DNA from: a virus
Lineage: Duplodnaviria > Heunggongvirae > Uroviricota > Caudoviricetes
Virus record (IMG/VR): IMGVR_UViG_2565956726_000008
Reading direction: 5' to 3' (one strand)
Length of the DNA: 64,000 bases
The notes beneath the pieces were generated by a model. That model saw nothing but the letters and a program-made list of their open reading frames with translations, was not told the origin of the DNA and searched no databases. The translations under genes were made by a program, and so were the position numbers. This document shows positions 33,821-46,781 of this stretch, piece after piece (within the stretch, counting starts at the first letter, position 1; each line of letters begins with the position of its first letter).

Positions 33821-34240
33821 TTAAGAGGCTTTTTGTTTTTTCTTTCGTGCTAACTCTTCGTAAATTGCATTGTACTTCTGTTTTTTCTCCTCAAGAGTTT
33901 TTAAAAGTTCATCTGTCTCACTGTCAGGGAGCTCGTCCAGAAGGTCAATGATGATTTTTTGTCTTGGATTTAACTCCTGATAGAAACGTACCTGTCCACT
34001 TTCTTCTGTATCCTCTCCCAAAAGATAGGTTGGTGTTGTTCCAATGAGTGTTGCTAATTCCCTTAATTTCTCTCGGCGAGGAATTGTTTCGCCATTAAAC
34101 CATTTGCTAACCGCTTTTGGTGTTAATTTCATTCGACGGGCAATTTCTGCCTGCCTTCCATGTTGTTCATAACCAGCGTTTTCACAGGCTAGCGCAAGCC
34201 TACTGGCGAACTCTTTACGCGCTTTATCTTCATGAACCAT
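33821..34240 (-). CDS. racR: Rac prophage repressor RacR
   Basis: 139 aa with N-terminal HTH; divergent from ydaS. Confidence 0.8.
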   Translation of the reverse strand: MVHEDKARKEFASRLALACENAGYEQHGRQAEIARRMKLTPKAVSKWFNGETIPRREKLRELATLIGTTPTYLLGEDTEESGQVRFYQELNPRQKIIIDLLDELPDSETDELLKTLEEKKQKYNAIYEELARKKKQKAS

Positions 34241-34319
34241 AAGTTCAATGATATTCGCTCTTGAATGTACTGTCAGTTCTGTTATAGCATGTACTCAAAG
34301 TTCACATTGTGAGGGTGAT

Positions 34320-34574
34320 ATGAACCAGAAAACACTTGAAGATGTAATCAAAACTGTTCGCGTTTCTGTTGTGGCCGACGTTTGTGGTGTCAGCCAAAGA
34401 GCAATCTACAAATGGATGGATAACGGAAAATTGCCTCGCACAGAATATACCGGCGAAACAAATTACGCTGAAAAAATCGCTCATGCATCAAACGGATTAT
34501 TTTCTGCCGATGTAATTTTAACTATTGGCAGAAATAAAACTACTACGAAAAAGCTGATGGGAGTTGATTCATGA
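34320..34574 (+). CDS. ydaS: Cro-like HTH protein YdaS (toxic when derepressed)
   Basis: 84 aa from MNQKTLED with GAGGG RBS; HTH GVSQRAIYKW. Confidence 0.75.
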   Translation: MNQKTLEDVIKTVRVSVVADVCGVSQRAIYKWMDNGKLPRTEYTGETNYAEKIAHASNGLFSADVILTIGRNKTTTKKLMGVDS

Positions 34575-39397: not shown

Positions 39398-39919
39398 TGA
39401 AAATTCCTCAAGTTGGAGAGTTCTGGAACATTAAGGCGAGGTGGCAGTAATGCACCATCTGTAATCTTTTGATACTGACGTAATCGGGCCTGATGTGCAA
39501 CGCCTTGCAAGTATGTAACTCATTGAAAACGATCATTTTTATCTATTGACATCAAATGGCAAACTGTCATTGTGCGGCTATGGCAAGTGGCAAATGCTTA
39601 TAAATCATATGGATATAAATAGTACAGAAAGAGTTGTTTTCTCTAGGATATGAGTATACGCCCAATGCTGATTGGTTGAATTTTGTTCTTGTTTTAAAGG
39701 GTAAGAGTTTAAAGTGTTGGCAGTGATGTATTGGATAGTTAGAATTGCTGTGGGTGCTTGAGGCTATCTGCCTCGGGCATGAACACCAAAGGTAGATAGA
39801 GAAAAGCCCCAGTTAACATTACGCGTCCTGCAAGACGTTTAACATTAATCTGAGGCCATATCTATGCGACACATAGAGATTAGCCTCTTACGGACCGAAA
39901 GGTCAAGGAGAAGCAGGCT

Positions 39920-40045
39920 ATGAAGCAGCAAAAGGCGATGTTAATCGCCCTGATCGTCATCTGTTTAACCGTCATAGTGACGGCACTGGTAACGAGGAAA
40001 GACCTCTGCGAGGTACGAATCCGAACTGGCAGACGGAGGCTCTGA
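39920..40045 (+). pseudogene. hok/gef-family type I toxin remnant (frameshift and nonsense)
   Basis: Translation MKQQKAMLIALIVICLTVIVTALVTRKDLCEVRIRTG then out-of-frame RRRL-stop; 3' end still shows ...TAC TAA TCT GAG TAA as in hok ...YESE. Confidence 0.5.
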
Positions 40046-40127
40046 TTCGTAGACTACTAATCTGAGTAAAAGACCCAGCGGGGAAAGAACCACGCCGGGA
40101 CTAGTTAATAAGATATTTATAGCGTGG

Positions 40128-40469
40128 CTATTCTTTTTTTGCGGTATAGACTTTTTCGCCTGAGAAGTCTGGAGCTACCCAAAAGTTAATATTAAACTGA
40201 GCATCATCGCTTAGTTCAACACGGTGCCAGTATTGTGGTGGGCTTGTTGCAAAAGCGCCAGCATTAATGACTACTTTTATCTCCGGTTCAGTAGCATTCT
40301 CATCAGCAAAACCATAATATGTTACAGTACCTTCCATCACGCATAACTGTCCAAAAACACCTGCTGCTGTATTATGATGTGTTAATAACGCTGAAGGTAC
40401 GTTCTCTTTTGTGAAGAACGGAGTTGAGCGTTTGATTACCCAGTCTTTAGGAATTCTCTTGTGTGTCAT
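40128..40469 (-). CDS. cupin-fold protein (DUF1971-like), cargo gene
   Basis: 113 aa from MTHKRIPKDW; beta-rich composition; isolated minus-strand gene flanked by AT-rich DNA. Confidence 0.45.
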   Translation of the reverse strand: MTHKRIPKDWVIKRSTPFFTKENVPSALLTHHNTAAGVFGQLCVMEGTVTYYGFADENATEPEIKVVINAGAFATSPPQYWHRVELSDDAQFNINFWVAPDFSGEKVYTAKKE

Positions 40470-41336
40470 AACCACCTCCCATAAAACATGCATTATAAAT
40501 GCACCTTTTTGAGGGTTATGTCAAGCTGTTATGAAACACATAATTGATATGTTGATTAGAGGAGAAGATAGAATCAATATGGTTGTTTTTCGTATAACTA
40601 TTTGTTTTACTTTTAGTTTGTGCATTCTGTGTGTTAGGAATAACTTATTAAAGTTTAACTAAAAAATCTCGATATAGTCCGCATAGATTACTGTTACTGA
40701 ATCTTATTGTGTGCATTAGTTGTGTTCTGAAATTTCAATTTAATTACTTATGATATATTTTTAACGATAAATGTTTTCCGGGTGAAAGACAGTGGGGGAT
40801 GAGATAAGCAATATATCATTAATCTTGATTATTTCCAGGATGCCTTTACTGTGCATATAAATAAATCATATACGCATCAAATAATGTAAAGGCATCCTTT
40901 TAGATATATCTTATCAAATGTTAATGATTTGAGTGGGAAACATGATTCCAGAAACTAATCATGCGGCTACTTTATAAAAATAATGCCCATATAAAACAGC
41001 CAGCGAAAAGGATTACGGATAAAAAAGGAGCGAGATGTGCATAGTTGTTATTTTCCATGTTTAACCACCTTAAATAATTGATGATGACGGGATGTGCATC
41101 TGTAATGCTTTTGTTGAAATGTTATGATAAAAAAGAACTTTTTCATAACATTAAAATGTAATTTATCTAATCGTTTTTAATAATAAGTGTTGTATTTCTA
41201 TCCTTGTATCAGCTATTTGATATGTAGTGTTTGTTCATGTTATGTGGAGCTTTACACCATAGCCAGTTTATTTATACTTTATTCGTCAGCCTGAACAACT
41301 GGCATCTGCTGCACTGCGCCATCGAGAGATTGAGAA

Positions 41337-41936
41337 ATGGCGCATATACAACTGGTCAAACAAACCTCTTCTGGACTACTTCTCCCGGCGACGCCGGAGA
41401 GTTGCGATTTTTTGCATCAAATCAAAATAGGCGAGTGGATACACGCAGACTTTAAGCGTGTGCGTAACTACGCATTCCACAAGCGTTTTTTCAAACTCCT
41501 GCAACTGGGATTCGATTACTGGACTCCGGTCGGTGGGGCGATCACGCCTCGCGAACGAAAGCTGGTTTCAGGATTCGTTGATTACCTATGTGAATCAGTA
41601 GGCCGGGAACATACGCCAGCTCTGAGCGAAGCCGCAGAGCAATATCTGAATACAGTTGCGACACGCAGAACCCGGGATACGGCATTGCTAAAGTCGTTTG
41701 AGGCTTTCCGCGAGTGGGTAACCATTCAGGCCGGATTTTACACCGAGCATCTTTATCCTGATGGTAGCCATGGGCGTCGGGCGAAATCCATCGCTTTTGC
41801 GAATATGGACGAAACCGAGTTTCAGCAGGTTTATAAATCTGTTCTGAATGTGCTGTGGAACTGGATTCTGTTCCGTAAATTTTCCTCTCCGGAACAAGTC
41901 GAAAATGTGACCGCGCAGCTGCTGGAGTTTGCGTAA
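41337..41936 (+). CDS. DUF1367-type lambdoid late-region protein
   Basis: 199 aa; position upstream of Q as ydfU-like genes in other lambdoid prophages. Confidence 0.45.
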   Translation: MAHIQLVKQTSSGLLLPATPESCDFLHQIKIGEWIHADFKRVRNYAFHKRFFKLLQLGFDYWTPVGGAITPRERKLVSGFVDYLCESVGREHTPALSEAAEQYLNTVATRRTRDTALLKSFEAFREWVTIQAGFYTEHLYPDGSHGRRAKSIAFANMDETEFQQVYKSVLNVLWNWILFRKFSSPEQVENVTAQLLEFA

Positions 41937-42986: not shown

Positions 42987-43556
42987 ATGAGAGAACTACC
43001 TAAAGATTATTTTTTAGGAGTAGATGATGAGCTCGTCGATTATCTTGAAAAACAAGGGGAAGAGACGATACGAGAGATTCATCTTTCTAACAAAACCAAT
43101 GTTGAGAATGGATACAAACTTCTGAACATTCAGATTGTTGGAATTGGTTCATCTTTTTTATTGCTGACACAGAAAACTAATTTCGATTTTCTCACCGCCG
43201 GAATTACCACATTTACATTACTATGGACATGGTGCGCCATTTACTTGGTATGTACTGGTTTATCTGTGAAGGTTAGGGGCCTGATCAATGCCCCTCCTGA
43301 TCATATATATCATGAAAAATATAAGGATATGGAGCCCTCGAGCTTTAAAATATTCGCTGATGCAGGATATTTAGGACCTGATAAGTTATTGCCGCTTATA
43401 CGAAGGTATCGCCTTGTTGACTTGAGTGATACAGCAAGAGAGTTACTGTTGGAAAATGAGAAAATCCGCACGAGTCTCGATAAAGCAAGGATGTATACCA
43501 TCCTTGCTCCGGTAGCGGCGATGTTTATCTCGGCTGTTTTTTTATATGTTCAATGA
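42987..43556 (+). CDS. membrane protein of unknown function (moron between Q and holin)
   Basis: 189 aa; GGAGG RBS; two central hydrophobic helices and a C-terminal TM. Confidence 0.5.
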   Translation: MRELPKDYFLGVDDELVDYLEKQGEETIREIHLSNKTNVENGYKLLNIQIVGIGSSFLLLTQKTNFDFLTAGITTFTLLWTWCAIYLVCTGLSVKVRGLINAPPDHIYHEKYKDMEPSSFKIFADAGYLGPDKLLPLIRRYRLVDLSDTARELLLENEKIRTSLDKARMYTILAPVAAMFISAVFLYVQ

Positions 43557-44725: not shown

Positions 44726-45186
44726 GCAGAGTAACCGCGATTATCTCCGCTCTGGTTATCTGCATCGTCGTCTGCCTGTCATGGGGTGTTAATCATTACC
44801 GTGATAACGCCATCGCCTACAAAGAACAGCGCGACAAAAATGCCAGAGAACTGAAGCTGGCGAACGCGGCAATTACTGACATGCAGATGCGTCAGCGTGA
44901 TGTTGCTGCGCTCGATGCAAAATACACGAAGGAGTTAGCTGATGCGAAAGCTGAAAATGATGCTCTGCGTGATGATGTTGCCGCTGGTCGTCGTCGGTTG
45001 CACATCAAAGCAGTCTGTCAGTCAGTGCGTGAAGCCACCACCGCCTCCGGCGTGGATAATGCAGCCTCCCCCCGACTGGCAGACACCGCTGAACGGGATT
45101 ATTTCACCCTCCGGGAACGACTGGTAATGATGCAGGCCCAACTTGAAGGTGCTCAGCAATACATAACCGAGCAGTGTTTAAAGTAA
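44722..45186 (+). CDS. Rz: i-spanin Rz
   Basis: 154 aa; N-terminal TM and coiled coil; overlaps R stop. Confidence 0.9.
44942..45127 (+). CDS. Rz1: o-spanin Rz1 (embedded in Rz, +1 frame)
   Basis: 61-aa lipoprotein [20 protein letters not shown] with PPPPP tract, entirely inside Rz. Confidence 0.85.
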
Positions 45187-45323
45187 AATCTTAACTACAA
45201 TATGATTCATTTTGATGATTGTTTCATAAGGAACAGTGAAGTAAGATCTAAGAGGAGTTAAATTTTATACAGTATAATCATAATATTGCAGCAAGGTGGT
45301 TATAATTGAAAGAATATTTAGAT

Positions 45324-46781
45324 ATGAATACATCTCATGTAAGAGTTGTTACTCATATGTGTGGGTTCCTGGTTTGGCTCTATAGTCTTTCAATGTTGCC
45401 ACCAATGGTTGTAGCATTGTTTTATAAAGAAAAAAGCCTGTTCGTTTTCTTTATAACTTTCGTTATATTTTTTTGCATTGGTGGCGGAGCGTGGTATACA
45501 ACTAAGAAATCTGGCATTCAATTACGTACCCGTGATGGGTTTATTATAATTGTAATGTTTTGGATTTTGTTTTCTGTTATTAGTGCATTCCCTTTATGGA
45601 TTGACTCAGAACTTAATTTAACGTTCATTGATGCTCTGTTTGAAGGGGTTTCTGGAATAACAACAACAGGAGCAACTGTAATTGATGATGTTAGTTCATT
45701 ACCTCGGGCATATTTGTACTATCGGTCACAGTTAAATTTTATAGGTGGTTTAGGAGTTATTGTTCTGGCGGTTGCTGTATTGCCATTATTGGGTATTGGT
45801 GGTGCAAAGCTTTATCAGTCAGAAATGCCGGGGCCATTTAAGGATGACAAACTCACTCCCCGCCTGGCCGATACGTCACGGACACTGTGGATAACTTATT
45901 CTTTATTAGGTATTGCTTGTATTGTCTGTTATAGACTTGCAGGAATGCCTTTGTTTGATGCTATTTGTCACGGGATTTCCACAGTTTCGCTTGGTGGTTT
46001 CTCAACTCATAGCGAGAGTATCGGATATTTTAATAACTATTTGGTTGAGCTGGTGGCTGGTTCTTTTTCCCTGCTATCGGCTTTCAACTTCACTCTTTGG
46101 TATATTGTTATTAGCAGGAAAACGATAAAACCTTTAATCAGAGATATTGAACTTCGTTTCTTTCTGTTAATAGCCTTAGGGGTGATCATTGTTACCTCTT
46201 TCCAGGTCTGGCATATAGGTATGTATGACTTGCATGGAAGTTTTATTCATTCGTTTTTTCTTGCCAGCTCCATGCTCACTGATAATGGTTTAGCTACGCA
46301 GGATTATGCAAGTTGGCCCACGCACACGATAGTGTTTTTGCTGTTGTCAAGTTTCTTTGGGGGATGTATAGGTTCAACTTGTGGTGGAATTAAGTCACTT
46401 CGATTTCTTATACTTTTCAAACAAAGCAAACACGAGATAAATCAGCTTTCTCATCCCAGAGCGTTGTTGAGTGTAAATGTAGGAGGGAAGATAGTTACAG
46501 ATCGTGTAATGAGGTCTGTATGGAGTTTCTTTTTTCTTTATACTCTCTTCACGGTGTTTTTTATACTGGTGTTAAATGGTATGGGATATGATTTTCTTAC
46601 ATCATTTGCAACAGTGGCTGCATGTATTAATAATATGGGATTAGGTTTTGGGGCTACTGCATCGTCATTCGGAGTGCTTAATGACATTGCAAAATGTTTA
46701 ATGTGCATAGCTATGATTCTTGGTCGCCTTGAAATTTATCCTGTTATTATATTGTTTTCAGGTTTTTTTTGGCGCTCCTAA
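45324..46781 (+). CDS. trkG: potassium uptake protein TrkG
   Basis: 485 aa from MNTSHVRVV; multi-TM; AT-rich gene as in Rac. Confidence 0.9.
   Translation: MNTSHVRVVTHMCGFLVWLYSLSMLPPMVVALFYKEKSLFVFFITFVIFFCIGGGAWYTTKKSGIQLRTRDGFIIIVMFWILFSVISAFPLWIDSELNLTFIDALFEGVSGITTTGATVIDDVSSLPRAYLYYRSQLNFIGGLGVIVLAVAVLPLLGIGGAKLYQSEMPGPFKDDKLTPRLADTSRTLWITYSLLGIACIVCYRLAGMPLFDAICHGISTVSLGGFSTHSESIGYFNNYLVELVAGSFSLLSAFNFTLWYIVISRKTIKPLIRDIELRFFLLIALGVIIVTSFQVWHIGMYDLHGSFIHSFFLASSMLTDNGLATQDYASWPTHTIVFLLLSSFFGGCIGSTCGGIKSLRFLILFKQSKHEINQLSHPRALLSVNVGGKIVTDRVMRSVWSFFFLYTLFTVFFILVLNGMGYDFLTSFATVAACINNMGLGFGATASSFGVLNDIAKCLMCIAMILGRLEIYPVIILFSGFFWRS

What the first reader, a model, noticed from the sequence alone, without database searches (positions are those of the whole stretch)
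40494..41336. About 840 bp of very AT-rich non-coding DNA upstream of the late-gene block
Between the cupin gene and the DUF1367 gene there is no ORF of credible length on either strand and the composition is strongly AT-biased with homopolymer tracts. A gap this large is unusual in a compact prophage; it may hold an unannotated sRNA, an H-NS-silenced promoter or a decayed gene.
Basis: seen in the sequence. Interest (0 to 1): 0.45.

Follow-up and report, generated by a model that had tools for sequence, protein, structure and literature searches.

The report
AT-rich mosaic spacer in Rac-type prophage
The AT-rich "empty" stretch is a junction of two accessory DNA cassettes in an E. coli Rac-type prophage, and it probably holds an unannotated 28-codon membrane-peptide gene plus the promoter and a structured RNA leader of the operon that ends in the late-gene activator Q.

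Summary
Window 40494-41336 is the most AT-rich 843 bp of the window (GC 0.31). It has no ORF over 43 codons and no RefSeq feature in any of 1041 E. coli genomes that match it.

It is not a decayed gene. It has three parts.

(1) 40470-40970 occurs only together with the minus-strand DUF1971 cupin gene and is that cassette's upstream region.

(2) 40971-41250 also occurs, at 72-78% identity, in about 700 genomes that lack the cupin. It contains a 28-codon minus-strand ORF (40972-41058, MENNNYAHLAPFLSVILFAGCFIWALFL) with an AAGGTGG ribosome-binding site. The ORF is intact in all 11 DNA haplotypes and no gene caller has ever called it. Expression is untested.

(3) 41251-41343 is a sigma-70-type promoter plus a leader that precedes DUF1367 (NinB/Orf-like) genes in E. 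coli, Salmonella, Klebsiella and a Stenotrophomonas phage. A 5-bp hairpin with the conserved loop CCUGAACAA shows strong covariation. A second helix pairs GCGCCA with the start codon.

No Rfam family matches either RNA element. An sRNA, a type I toxin role and H-NS silencing all remain untested. Overall this is ordinary prophage mosaicism with two modestly new features.

The parts
40128..40469 (-). DUF1971 (cupin-like) accessory gene; RefSeq start at 40469
   Evidence: Pfam PF09313, E = 3.5e-26. RefSeq CDS WP_001445776.1. Present or absent between hok and DUF1367 in related prophages.
40470..40970 (.). Left module: AT-rich DNA (GC 0.30) found only together with the DUF1971 gene; presumed to be its upstream or regulatory region
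   Evidence: 465 genomes hold it and 463 hold the whole gap. It co-occurs with the cupin in 14 of 14 IMG/VR loci and never occurs without it. A 57-bp internal deletion is present in a large subgroup.
40492..40524 (-). Consensus hexamers TTGACA (40524-40519) and TATAAT (40497-40492) on the minus strand, 21 nt apart, ~25 nt upstream of the DUF1971 ATG. The palindrome TGCATT-ATA-AATGCA (40489-40503) overlaps the -10.
   Evidence: Read from the sequence and scored with a PWM. The 21-nt spacer is non-canonical. Function is inferred only.
40531..40662 (+). 43-codon ORF (27 codons from the internal ATG at 40582-40584); probably not a gene
   Evidence: Called 'hypothetical' in one phage record and in a few assemblies. 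Between variants there are 5 non-synonymous changes against 1 synonymous, and the stop codon moves. No good ribosome-binding site.
40837..40902 (+). 13-bp perfect inverted repeat (40837-49 / 40886-98) with a 36-nt loop, followed by TTTT; terminator-like on the + strand
   Evidence: I8. Fold (z = -2.27 for 40761-40906). Arm changes in variants give wobbles or mismatches only, with no compensatory change.
40971..41250 (.). Right module: AT-rich block (GC 0.29) that is conserved independently of the cupin
   Evidence: In about 700 genomes that lack the cupin it lies directly between hok and DUF1367 at 72-78% identity.
40972..41058 (-). Unannotated 28-codon ORF: MENNNYAHLAPFLSVILFAGCFIWALFL, a polar N-terminus followed by a 20-residue hydrophobic stretch
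   Evidence: Intact in 56 loci, with 11 DNA haplotypes and 8 protein variants, always 28 codons plus TAA. pN/pS is 0.4-0.5. Under neutral simulation the ORF survives in 10% of runs; it survives with no polar residue in the hydrophobic stretch in 1.6%. There are no indels in the ORF although the flanks have several.
41065..41071 (-). Ribosome-binding site AAGGTGG, 6 nt before the ATG of the 28-codon ORF
   Evidence: AAGGTG is kept in all but one of the 31 distinct sequences aligned (AAGGTA in one).
41118..41152 (-). Inverted repeat / hairpin (arms AATGTTATGA / TCATAACATT) about 60 nt upstream of the small ORF
   Evidence: I7. The stem is kept in the diverged clade. One G-C becomes G-U on the minus-strand RNA (A-C on the plus strand), and in three sequences one A-U becomes C-G. 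The evidence is weak.
41144..41200 (.). Best-conserved non-coding block of the right module, lying between the divergent small ORF and the DUF1367 promoter
   Evidence: About 5 differences in 57 nt between clades that are otherwise about 75% identical. Function unknown; it may be the promoter of the small ORF.
41251..41278 (+). Sigma-70-type promoter: TTTACA, 16 nt, TATACT; predicted transcription start about 41285
   Evidence: Best promoter score in the gap. All 89 distinct upstream contexts of DUF1367 genes have a -10-like hexamer 4-9 nt before the hairpin (6 nt in 62 of them), and most have a -35-like hexamer at a 16-18 nt spacing.
41285..41303 (+). Leader hairpin 1: stem GUCAG/CUGGC, 9-nt loop CCUGAACAA
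   Evidence: 95% of cells paired; 4 of 5 pairs changed on both sides; covariation score 0.629 against 0.247 in shuffles (0 of 500 reach it); slid controls at most 0.09. 27 hairpin variants were found. RNAalifold predicts the hairpin independently. 228 of 231 such hairpins in 1.7 Mb lie just before a DUF1367 start.
41316..41343 (+). Leader helix 2: GCGCCAU pairs with AUGGCGC (start codon 41337-39), with the ribosome-binding site in the loop
   Evidence: 100% paired in 27 distinct leaders, with one compensatory C-G to U-A change. Predicted by RNAalifold, with an inner extension that pairs the GG of the ribosome-binding site in most of the 16 leaders aligned (13 of 16). Also in the single-sequence minimum-energy fold.
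41337..41936 (+). DUF1367 gene (NinB/Orf-like recombination mediator); first gene of the DUF1367-YbcO-Q operon
   Evidence: Pfam PF07105, E = 3.5e-97. phrog_319, NinB/Orf. Gene order.

Best explanation
The gap is a mosaic junction in the nin-type region of a Rac-type lambdoid prophage. It is neither a broken gene nor empty DNA. Two AT-rich accessory cassettes sit between the hok/sok locus and the DUF1367-YbcO-Q operon.

Cassette 1 is the minus-strand DUF1971 cupin gene plus about 500 bp of its own upstream DNA (40470-40970). This stretch carries promoter-like hexamers close to the gene.

Cassette 2 (40971-41250) carries a 28-codon minus-strand gene for a small, single-pass hydrophobic peptide with its own ribosome-binding site. 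It is transcribed divergently from the DUF1367 operon. At 87 nt it was never called in a 15-billion-protein collection; from my own knowledge, it is also below the usual minimum gene length of common gene callers.

The last ~90 bp (41251-41343) belong to the DUF1367 gene itself. They hold a sigma-70 promoter whose transcript starts at a 5'-terminal hairpin with the conserved loop CCUGAACAA, followed by a helix that pairs GCGCCA(U) with the start codon and encloses the ribosome-binding site. The likely effect is that the hairpin and helix set the stability and translation of the first gene of the operon that delivers Q, probably in response to a factor that reads the conserved loop.

Shown: the modular anatomy, conservation of the ORF, covariation in the hairpin, and the fixed promoter geometry.

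Inferred: expression of the small ORF, the transcription start, translational control, any trans-acting factor, and H-NS binding to the AT-rich DNA.
For: Composite origin: the left half occurs only with the cupin. The right half occurs without it in about 700 genomes. Other prophages carry rem or another small + strand gene in the same slot.

Small ORF: 11 haplotypes and 8 protein variants, all 28 codons plus TAA. The ribosome-binding site is conserved. pN/pS is 0.4-0.5. Neutral survival is 10%, or 1.6% if the hydrophobic stretch must also be preserved.

Promoter: -10 and -35 hexamers sit at a fixed distance in 89 distinct contexts, from at least 8 unrelated upstream sequences. In Gifsy-1, the four genes that begin with the DUF1367 homologue are described as one 'antQ operon' (PMC4825925; gene order).

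Leader: covariation and specificity. It is also present in a Stenotrophomonas phage.

Not a decayed gene: no pseudogene call or annotated feature lies under any match.
Against: No transcript, ribosome or protein data were available, so nothing here is shown to be expressed.

The small-ORF family has only two deep clades and is confined to Escherichia and Shigella. pN/pS rests on about 18 substitutions. A T-rich strand gives hydrophobic peptides by composition alone. No convincing promoter for the small ORF was found.

The DUF1367 promoter score is no better than the best score in shuffled sequence; its support is comparative only.

Helix 2 hardly varies (one compensatory change), and its 3' arm is coding sequence.

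The DUF1971 hexamers are 21 nt apart, which is non-canonical.
Confidence: 0.7

Rival explanations
1. The AT-rich DNA is only xenogeneic spacer and regulatory DNA bound and silenced by H-NS. The 28-codon ORF is a chance open frame in T-rich sequence, kept because the haplotypes are closely related.
For: GC is 0.29-0.31 over about 750 bp. There are four near-matches to the H-NS nucleation motif TCGATAAATT in 843 bp, against 1.5 per kb in the window. There are only two deep clades of the ORF. No promoter was found for it. A T-rich strand favours hydrophobic codons.
Against: After 18 substitutions the frame, start, stop, ribosome-binding site and an uninterrupted hydrophobic stretch are all retained. 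This is expected in 1.6% of neutral simulations. The ORF has no indels while the flanks have several. The excess of H-NS motif matches is what AT-richness alone would give (98 found against 86 expected in the window).
Confidence: 0.2
2. The small ORF is the toxin of a type I toxin-antitoxin pair, or the gap encodes a trans-acting sRNA, for example a + strand RNA from about 40761 to the hairpin plus UUUU at 40837-40902.
For: The ORF is short and hydrophobic, lies next to hok/sok, and has a structured upstream region. On the + strand, promoter-like CTGAAA-16-TATGAT at 40727-40754 is followed by a long hairpin and UUUU; the fold has z = -2.27.
Against: No antisense promoter or terminator is conserved across the two clades of the ORF. 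No Rfam family matches even at E = 10. The body of the candidate sRNA is deleted in a large subgroup of genomes, and the hairpin arms show no compensatory change.
Confidence: 0.1
3. The gap is the eroded remnant of a once longer gene.
For: There are several short ORFs of 25-43 codons on both strands. One of them is annotated as hypothetical in one phage record.
Against: No pseudogene or CDS is annotated under more than 1000 RefSeq matches. No DNA similarity to annotated genes was found in phage records other than the same prophage. No Pfam, NCBIfam or PHROG match was found for the short ORFs. Variants differ by module presence or absence, not by frameshifts in a common frame.
Confidence: 0.04

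Closest known systems
Morons of lambdoid phages (accessory genes with their own expression signals inserted between conserved genes; concept of Juhala/Hendrix, from my own knowledge)
   Same: The DUF1971 cassette and the small-ORF block are present or absent between the same two neighbours (hok and DUF1367). Their GC content is much lower than that of the flanks. They are transcribed against the early-operon direction.
   Different: No clear terminator was found for either cassette. The promoters are predicted only. The second 'moron' would be a 28-codon gene that nobody has annotated.
Small hydrophobic prophage peptides and type I toxins (Hok/Gef, Ibs, ShoB, ZorO and similar)
   Same: Length under 50 residues, a single hydrophobic helix, a prophage location, and a structured upstream region. 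A genuine hok/sok locus lies 1 kb away.
   Different: No sequence similarity to any Pfam, NCBIfam or PHROG family. No antisense RNA is evident. Toxicity has not been tested.
isrK-orf45-anrP leader of Gifsy-1 (PMC4825925)
   Same: It is a regulatory RNA element in the nin/Q region of a lambdoid prophage. There, a translationally inactive mRNA structure gates production of a protein that leads to Q expression. The same paper treats the DUF1367-to-Q genes as one 'antQ operon'.
   Different: It is a different locus: downstream of Q in Gifsy-1, not upstream of DUF1367. There is no sequence or structure similarity, and no Rfam IsrK hit in the window. No trans-acting RNA is known for the leader described here.
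Lambda nut site boxB hairpin and the tR2 terminator upstream of ninB
   Same: A short hairpin with a conserved purine-rich loop and a covarying stem lies in the early-right transcription unit, at the position just before the ninB-type gene where lambda has tR2 (the lambda map is from my own knowledge).
   Different: The loop is 9 nt rather than a GNRA-like pentaloop. There is no boxA. It is a single copy in the prophage. It is not followed by a U run. A promoter lies directly in front of it.

Membership tests
Moron (lambdoid accessory cassette) | Present or absent between the same conserved neighbours in related phages | tested here: met
   hok and DUF1367 are adjacent to the right module alone in about 700 genomes. 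The cupin plus the left module is added in about 465. Other prophages carry rem or another gene instead.
Moron (lambdoid accessory cassette) | Base composition different from the surrounding phage genes | tested here: met
   GC is 0.29-0.41, against about 0.50 in the flanking phage genes.
Moron (lambdoid accessory cassette) | Own promoter and own terminator | tested here: inconclusive
   Consensus hexamers lie before the DUF1971 gene but with a 21-nt spacer. No canonical terminator lies after either gene.
Type I toxin-antitoxin system | Small hydrophobic toxin ORF | tested here: met
   28 codons with a 20-residue hydrophobic tail; mean Kyte-Doolittle value 2.4.
Type I toxin-antitoxin system | Antisense or partly complementary sRNA antitoxin encoded at the locus | tested here: not met
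   No promoter or terminator pair conserved between the two clades was found on the opposite strand. No Rfam antitoxin family matches other than sok at 39752. RNA-seq would be needed to exclude it.
Type I toxin-antitoxin system | Toxicity of the peptide when overproduced | not testable with these tools
   Needs an experiment.
Sigma-70 promoter (of the DUF1367 operon) | -35 and -10 hexamers at a 16-18 nt spacing, kept at a fixed place in relatives | tested here: met
   TTTACA-16-TATACT, 10 of 12 matches. All 89 distinct contexts have a -10-like hexamer 4-9 nt before hairpin 1. The -35 varies by upstream module: TTGACT, TTTACA, TTGCTT, TTGATT, TTGCAA or TTGACG.
Sigma-70 promoter (of the DUF1367 operon) | Mapped transcription start | not testable with these tools
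   Indirect only: PMC4825925 cites a transcriptome map for an 'antQ operon' that begins at the Gifsy-1 DUF1367 homologue (gene order).
Structured cis-regulatory mRNA leader | Base pairs supported by compensatory changes | tested here: met
   Hairpin 1: 4 of 5 pairs changed on both sides, 40 compensatory cells, 0 of 500 shuffles reach the score, slid controls collapse. Helix 2: 100% paired but with only 1 compensatory change. RNAalifold finds both helices.
Structured cis-regulatory mRNA leader | Ribosome-binding site or start codon occluded by the structure | tested here: met
   The AUG at 41337-39 lies in the 3' arm of helix 2. In most of the 16 leaders aligned (13 of 16) the GG of the ribosome-binding site is also paired. 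The effect on translation was not tested.
Lambda-type nut site (boxA + boxB) | boxA consensus upstream of the hairpin, and sites in both early operons | tested here: not met
   A -10 hexamer, not boxA, precedes the hairpin. The loop motif inside a stem occurs only once in the 64-kb window.
Intrinsic terminator (tR2-like) | G+C-rich stem followed by a U run | tested here: not met
   The scan finds no terminator in 40470-41336. Hairpin 1 is followed by AUCUGCUGC. The inverted repeat at 40837-98 has a 36-nt loop and only four U.
Any Rfam RNA family | Covariance-model score at or near the gathering threshold | tested here: not met
   Only sok, RalA and FnrS reach threshold, all outside the gap. 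Inside the gap there are only chance eukaryotic hits with E above 1.
H-NS-silenced xenogeneic DNA | AT-rich tract of several hundred bp | tested here: met
   GC is 0.30 over 780 bp, the lowest in the window.
H-NS-silenced xenogeneic DNA | H-NS occupancy and derepression in an hns mutant | not testable with these tools
   Only a motif count was possible, and it is uninformative.

The most novel reading that the evidence does not exclude
Hairpin 1 (loop YCUGRRCAA) plus the start-codon helix could be a previously undescribed cis-regulatory RNA. A specific phage or host factor would read it to gate expression of the DUF1367-to-Q operon. One possibility is autoregulation by the ssDNA-binding NinB/Orf-like protein itself. 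This would be a post-transcriptional checkpoint on the lysis decision in many Rac-type, Gifsy-type and Klebsiella prophages. In addition, the divergent 28-codon ORF could encode a new prophage membrane peptide, acting as a toxin, in exclusion, or as a modulator of a host membrane protein. It is carried by about a fifth of complete E. coli genomes.
Probability: 0.3. Interest if true: 0.6.

Novelty: new member of a known kind. Interest (0 to 1): 0.4.

Why it matters
As a whole the finding is ordinary. AT-rich accessory cassettes at module junctions are what lambdoid prophages are made of. Two by-products are useful.

First, a 28-codon ORF present in about 1177 of 5426 complete E. coli genomes is missing from every annotation and from a 15-billion-protein collection. 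This illustrates how many very small genes annotation pipelines can miss, and it gives a concrete candidate for small-protein work.

Second, the promoter and two-helix leader in front of DUF1367 genes form a compact RNA motif with good covariation support that is not in Rfam. It sits at the entry to the operon that produces the late-gene activator Q. If it controls Q dosage, it bears on how these very common prophages, including the Gifsy phages of Salmonella, time or restrain lytic development.

Tried and rejected
- Rfam at gathering thresholds and at E up to 10: nothing inside the gap.
- Pfam, NCBIfam and PHROGs for the short ORFs: no family; the best hit is phrog_6073 at E = 0.009 over 14 residues, which I take as chance.
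- My first IMG/VR pattern scan used the wrong spacing (12 N instead of 15) and found nothing. It should be ignored. The corrected pattern works.
- Literature searches for DUF1367/irsA, for the peptide sequences and for STM1020/STM2620 gave nothing relevant.
- nut-site reading of hairpin 1: rejected. It is a single copy, has no boxA, and a promoter lies in front.
- Terminator (tR2-like) reading: rejected, because there is no U run.
- Shared operators between the immunity region (34150-34420) and the gap: none; only one chance 9-mer is shared.
- H-NS motif enrichment: not distinguishable from composition.
- 43-codon + strand ORF (40531-40662) as a gene: rejected on its substitution pattern and its moving stop codon.
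- The upstream ORF that overlaps the start of the small ORF: its length varies (32, 11 or 27 codons) and its sequence is not conserved, so I do not treat it as a gene.
- Leader in distant DUF1367 genes (Vibrio and Pseudomonas, 34-37% identity): absent; those genes overlap an upstream HNH gene.

Full report
**Where we are.** The window carries FnrS (23203), RalA (27630) and a sok/hok locus (39752-40045). Its best matches are E. coli chromosomes in which the region is annotated ydaT, ydaV, DUF1627, DUF977, KilA-N, Hok, DUF1971, [gap], DUF1367, DUF1364 (YbcO), DUF1133 (Q-like), holin, lysozyme, trkG. This is a Rac-type lambdoid prophage. The gap lies in its nin-type region, upstream of the operon that ends in the Q antiterminator. 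It does not lie upstream of the late genes proper.

**The observation.** It is correct.
- GC of 40494-41336 is 0.31, against 0.46 for the window. Only 0.2% of 843-bp windows are as low, and all of those overlap this locus.
- The longest internal ORF is 43 codons.
- None of the 1041 E. coli genomes with a match has any feature annotated under it.
- RefSeq starts the cupin gene at 40469, behind GGAGGTGG, so the gap is really 867 bp.
- The last 86 bp are not AT-rich.

**The gap is composite.** In about 700 genomes only the right part (window 40971-41336) is present, at 72-78% identity. There it lies directly between hok and DUF1367. The left part (40494-40970) is found in 465 genomes and, in every locus inspected, only next to the DUF1971 gene. 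Other relatives fill the same slot with rem or with another small + strand gene. So two AT-rich accessory cassettes have been inserted at a recombination hot spot. No pseudogene call, no similarity to any annotated gene, and no common broken reading frame point to a decayed gene.

**Left module (40470-40970).**
- On the minus strand, perfect TTGACA (40524-19) and TATAAT (40497-92) hexamers lie just before the DUF1971 start. They are 21 nt apart. A 6-3-6 palindrome, TGCATT-ATA-AATGCA, covers the -10.
- A transcript that started further upstream would fold so that the DUF1971 ribosome-binding site and AUG are paired (z = -2.1).
- A 13-bp perfect inverted repeat with a long loop and TTTT lies at 40837-40902. 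Together with a + strand promoter-like site at 40727-54 it could define an RNA of about 140 nt (z = -2.27). However, its middle is deleted in a large subgroup, and the arms show only wobble or mismatch changes.
- The 43-codon + strand ORF, which one phage record annotates, has 5 non-synonymous changes against 1 synonymous, and its stop codon moves. I do not regard it as a gene.
- Beyond being the upstream region of the DUF1971 cassette, this module has no established function. H-NS binding is a reasonable expectation from its composition, but it could not be tested.

**Right module (40971-41250).** The homology between the two clades begins exactly at the stop codon of a minus-strand ORF, 40972-41058, which encodes MENNNYAHLAPFLSVILFAGCFIWALFL. 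AAGGTGG lies 6 nt before its ATG.
- Across 56 loci there are 11 DNA haplotypes and 8 protein variants. All have 28 codons and a TAA stop.
- Between the two clades there are 18 substitutions and no indel, while the flanks carry several indels.
- pN/pS is 0.4-0.5.
- In 100,000 neutral simulations the ORF stays intact in 10% of runs. It stays intact with no polar residue in the last 20 positions in 1.6%.
- The ORF matches no protein family.
- It is absent as an exact sequence from a collection of about 15 billion predicted proteins.
- Among 185,579 species representatives, the pattern built from its conserved residues is found only in Shigella flexneri and Escherichia ruysiae.
- Some part of the 291-bp query spanning the ORF and its upstream region is present in 1177 of 5426 complete E. 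coli genomes; 802 of them hold at least 80% of it.

Upstream of the ORF lie a hairpin (41118-41152) and a strongly conserved block (41144-41200). I could not find a convincing promoter for it. An upstream reading frame overlaps its start but varies in length and sequence. I rate the ORF as a probable real small gene, at about 0.6. Its role is unknown. The type I toxin reading lacks any sign of an antitoxin RNA.

**Promoter and leader of the DUF1367 operon (41251-41343).** The best promoter match in the gap is TTTACA-16-TATACT at 41251-41278. I compared 255 sequences held at that point: the window, loci fetched from E. coli, Shigella and E. ruysiae genomes, a handful of phage records including Gifsy-2 and Klebsiella phages, and IMG/VR contigs retrieved with the E. 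coli, Salmonella and Klebsiella DUF1367 proteins. A Stenotrophomonas phage fetched later shows the same layout. This revealed a common layout in front of every DUF1367 gene of this clade, whatever lies further upstream:
1. a -10-like hexamer (GATAAT, CATAAT, TATACT or TATAAT);
2. usually exactly 6 nt of spacer;
3. a 5-bp hairpin with the loop CCUGAACAA (consensus YCUGRRCAA);
4. a spacer of 7-28 nt;
5. GCGCCA;
6. the ribosome-binding site;
7. AUGGCGC.

All 89 distinct upstream contexts have the -10 element 4-9 nt before the hairpin. Most also have a -35-like hexamer that differs between upstream modules.

Evidence for hairpin 1:
- Its stem changes freely: GUCAG/CUGGC, GCCAG/CUGGC, ACUGG/CCAGU, AACGG/CCGUU, GUAGG/CCUGC, AUAGG/CCUAU, GUUGG/CCAAC, GCCG/CGGC, GCAGGA/UCCUGC and others. 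In total there are 27 hairpin variants.
- 95% of cells are paired, and 4 of 5 pairs have changes on both sides.
- The covariation score is 0.629, against 0.247 in shuffles (0 of 500 reach it). It falls to 0.09 or less when the partners are slid.

Evidence for helix 2:
- It is paired in 100% of 27 distinct leaders.
- It has one compensatory change: GUGCCA with AUGGCAC, a synonymous change in codon 2.

RNAalifold finds both helices on its own and extends helix 2 onto the GG of the ribosome-binding site. In 1.7 Mb of scanned sequence, 228 of 231 hairpins of this type lie immediately before a DUF1367 start. The window has only this one. More distant DUF1367 genes from Vibrio and Pseudomonas lack the leader. 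No Rfam family matches.

In Gifsy-1 the four genes that start with the DUF1367 homologue STM2620 and end with Q are described in the literature as the 'antQ operon', induced when the repressor is inactivated (PMC4825925, legends of S4 and S6 Figs). This fits a promoter at this place, although I have not seen the mapped start.

**Mechanism proposed.** The transcript of the DUF1367-YbcO-Q operon starts at, or within a few nucleotides of, the first base of hairpin 1. This follows from the fixed 6-nt distance to the -10 and is an inference. A 5'-terminal stem-loop would protect the mRNA from 5'-end-dependent decay. The conserved 9-nt loop argues for sequence-specific recognition by a protein or an RNA that I cannot name. 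Helix 2 occludes the start codon and, in most leaders, part of the ribosome-binding site. That would hold down translation of the first gene until the helix is opened. All functional steps are inferences; only the structures themselves are supported by comparative data.

I considered and rejected a nut/boxB reading (no boxA, single copy, promoter in front) and a tR2-like terminator (no U run).

**Verdict.** The finding is real and is explained mostly by ordinary prophage mosaicism. The two items worth recording are the unannotated 28-codon ORF and the DUF1367 leader motif. Both are new members of known kinds rather than new kinds.

Noticed in passing
window 39920-40045 (+) and 40046-40127: The hok ORF here is 41 codons with a different C-terminal end (…IRTGRRRL). 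Related loci without the cupin cassette have the 51-codon HokD followed by the usual 3' hairpins and terminator. The DUF1971 cassette appears to have replaced the 3' part of the hok transcript, so this hok/sok copy may no longer be regulated normally.
   Followed up: partly
L092 and L175-L254 (Klebsiella prophage contigs), about 15-30 nt upstream of the -10 of the DUF1367 promoter: A second small covarying hairpin lies in the promoter spacer (CCCCGGGAAGGGC, CCCCGTGACGGGC, CCCCGTAACGGGC, CCCCATGACGGGC). In L092 it follows a canonical terminator (CCCCTCtccgGAGGGGTTTT).
   Followed up: no
window 41304-41315 and the equivalent spacer in other leaders: The spacer between hairpin 1 and helix 2 often repeats part of the loop sequence: AACCUGACAA in Gifsy-2, ACCUGCU, AUCUGCU. 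This might be a second contact for whatever reads the loop.
   Followed up: no
window 40489-40503: The palindrome TGCATT-ATA-AATGCA lies exactly over the TATAAT before the DUF1971 gene. It looks like an operator for a dimeric repressor. The TTGACA and TATAAT hexamers are 21 nt apart.
   Followed up: partly
window 41048-41146 (-): An upstream reading frame shares a conserved ATG inside the 41118-41152 hairpin and ends at or over the start of the small ORF. It is 32 codons here, 11 in GF54 and Shigella, and 27 in the diverged clade. This may be translational coupling or chance.
   Followed up: partly
window 42987-43556 (+): A 189-codon ORF with predicted membrane segments lies between the Q-like gene and the holin, the slot where lambdoid phages carry late-promoter cargo such as stx. 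It has no Pfam match, only phrog_11870 of unknown function.
   Followed up: no
window 45100-45800: A second strongly AT-rich stretch (GC 0.30-0.37) covers the intergenic DNA and the start of trkG, the known accessory gene of Rac.
   Followed up: no
window 41337-41936; phage records: DUF1367 matches phrog_319 (NinB/Orf recombination mediator). It occupies the ninB position in Gifsy-1 and Gifsy-2 and in Klebsiella, Stenotrophomonas, Vibrio and Pseudomonas phages. Two phage records label it 'irsA'.
   Followed up: partly
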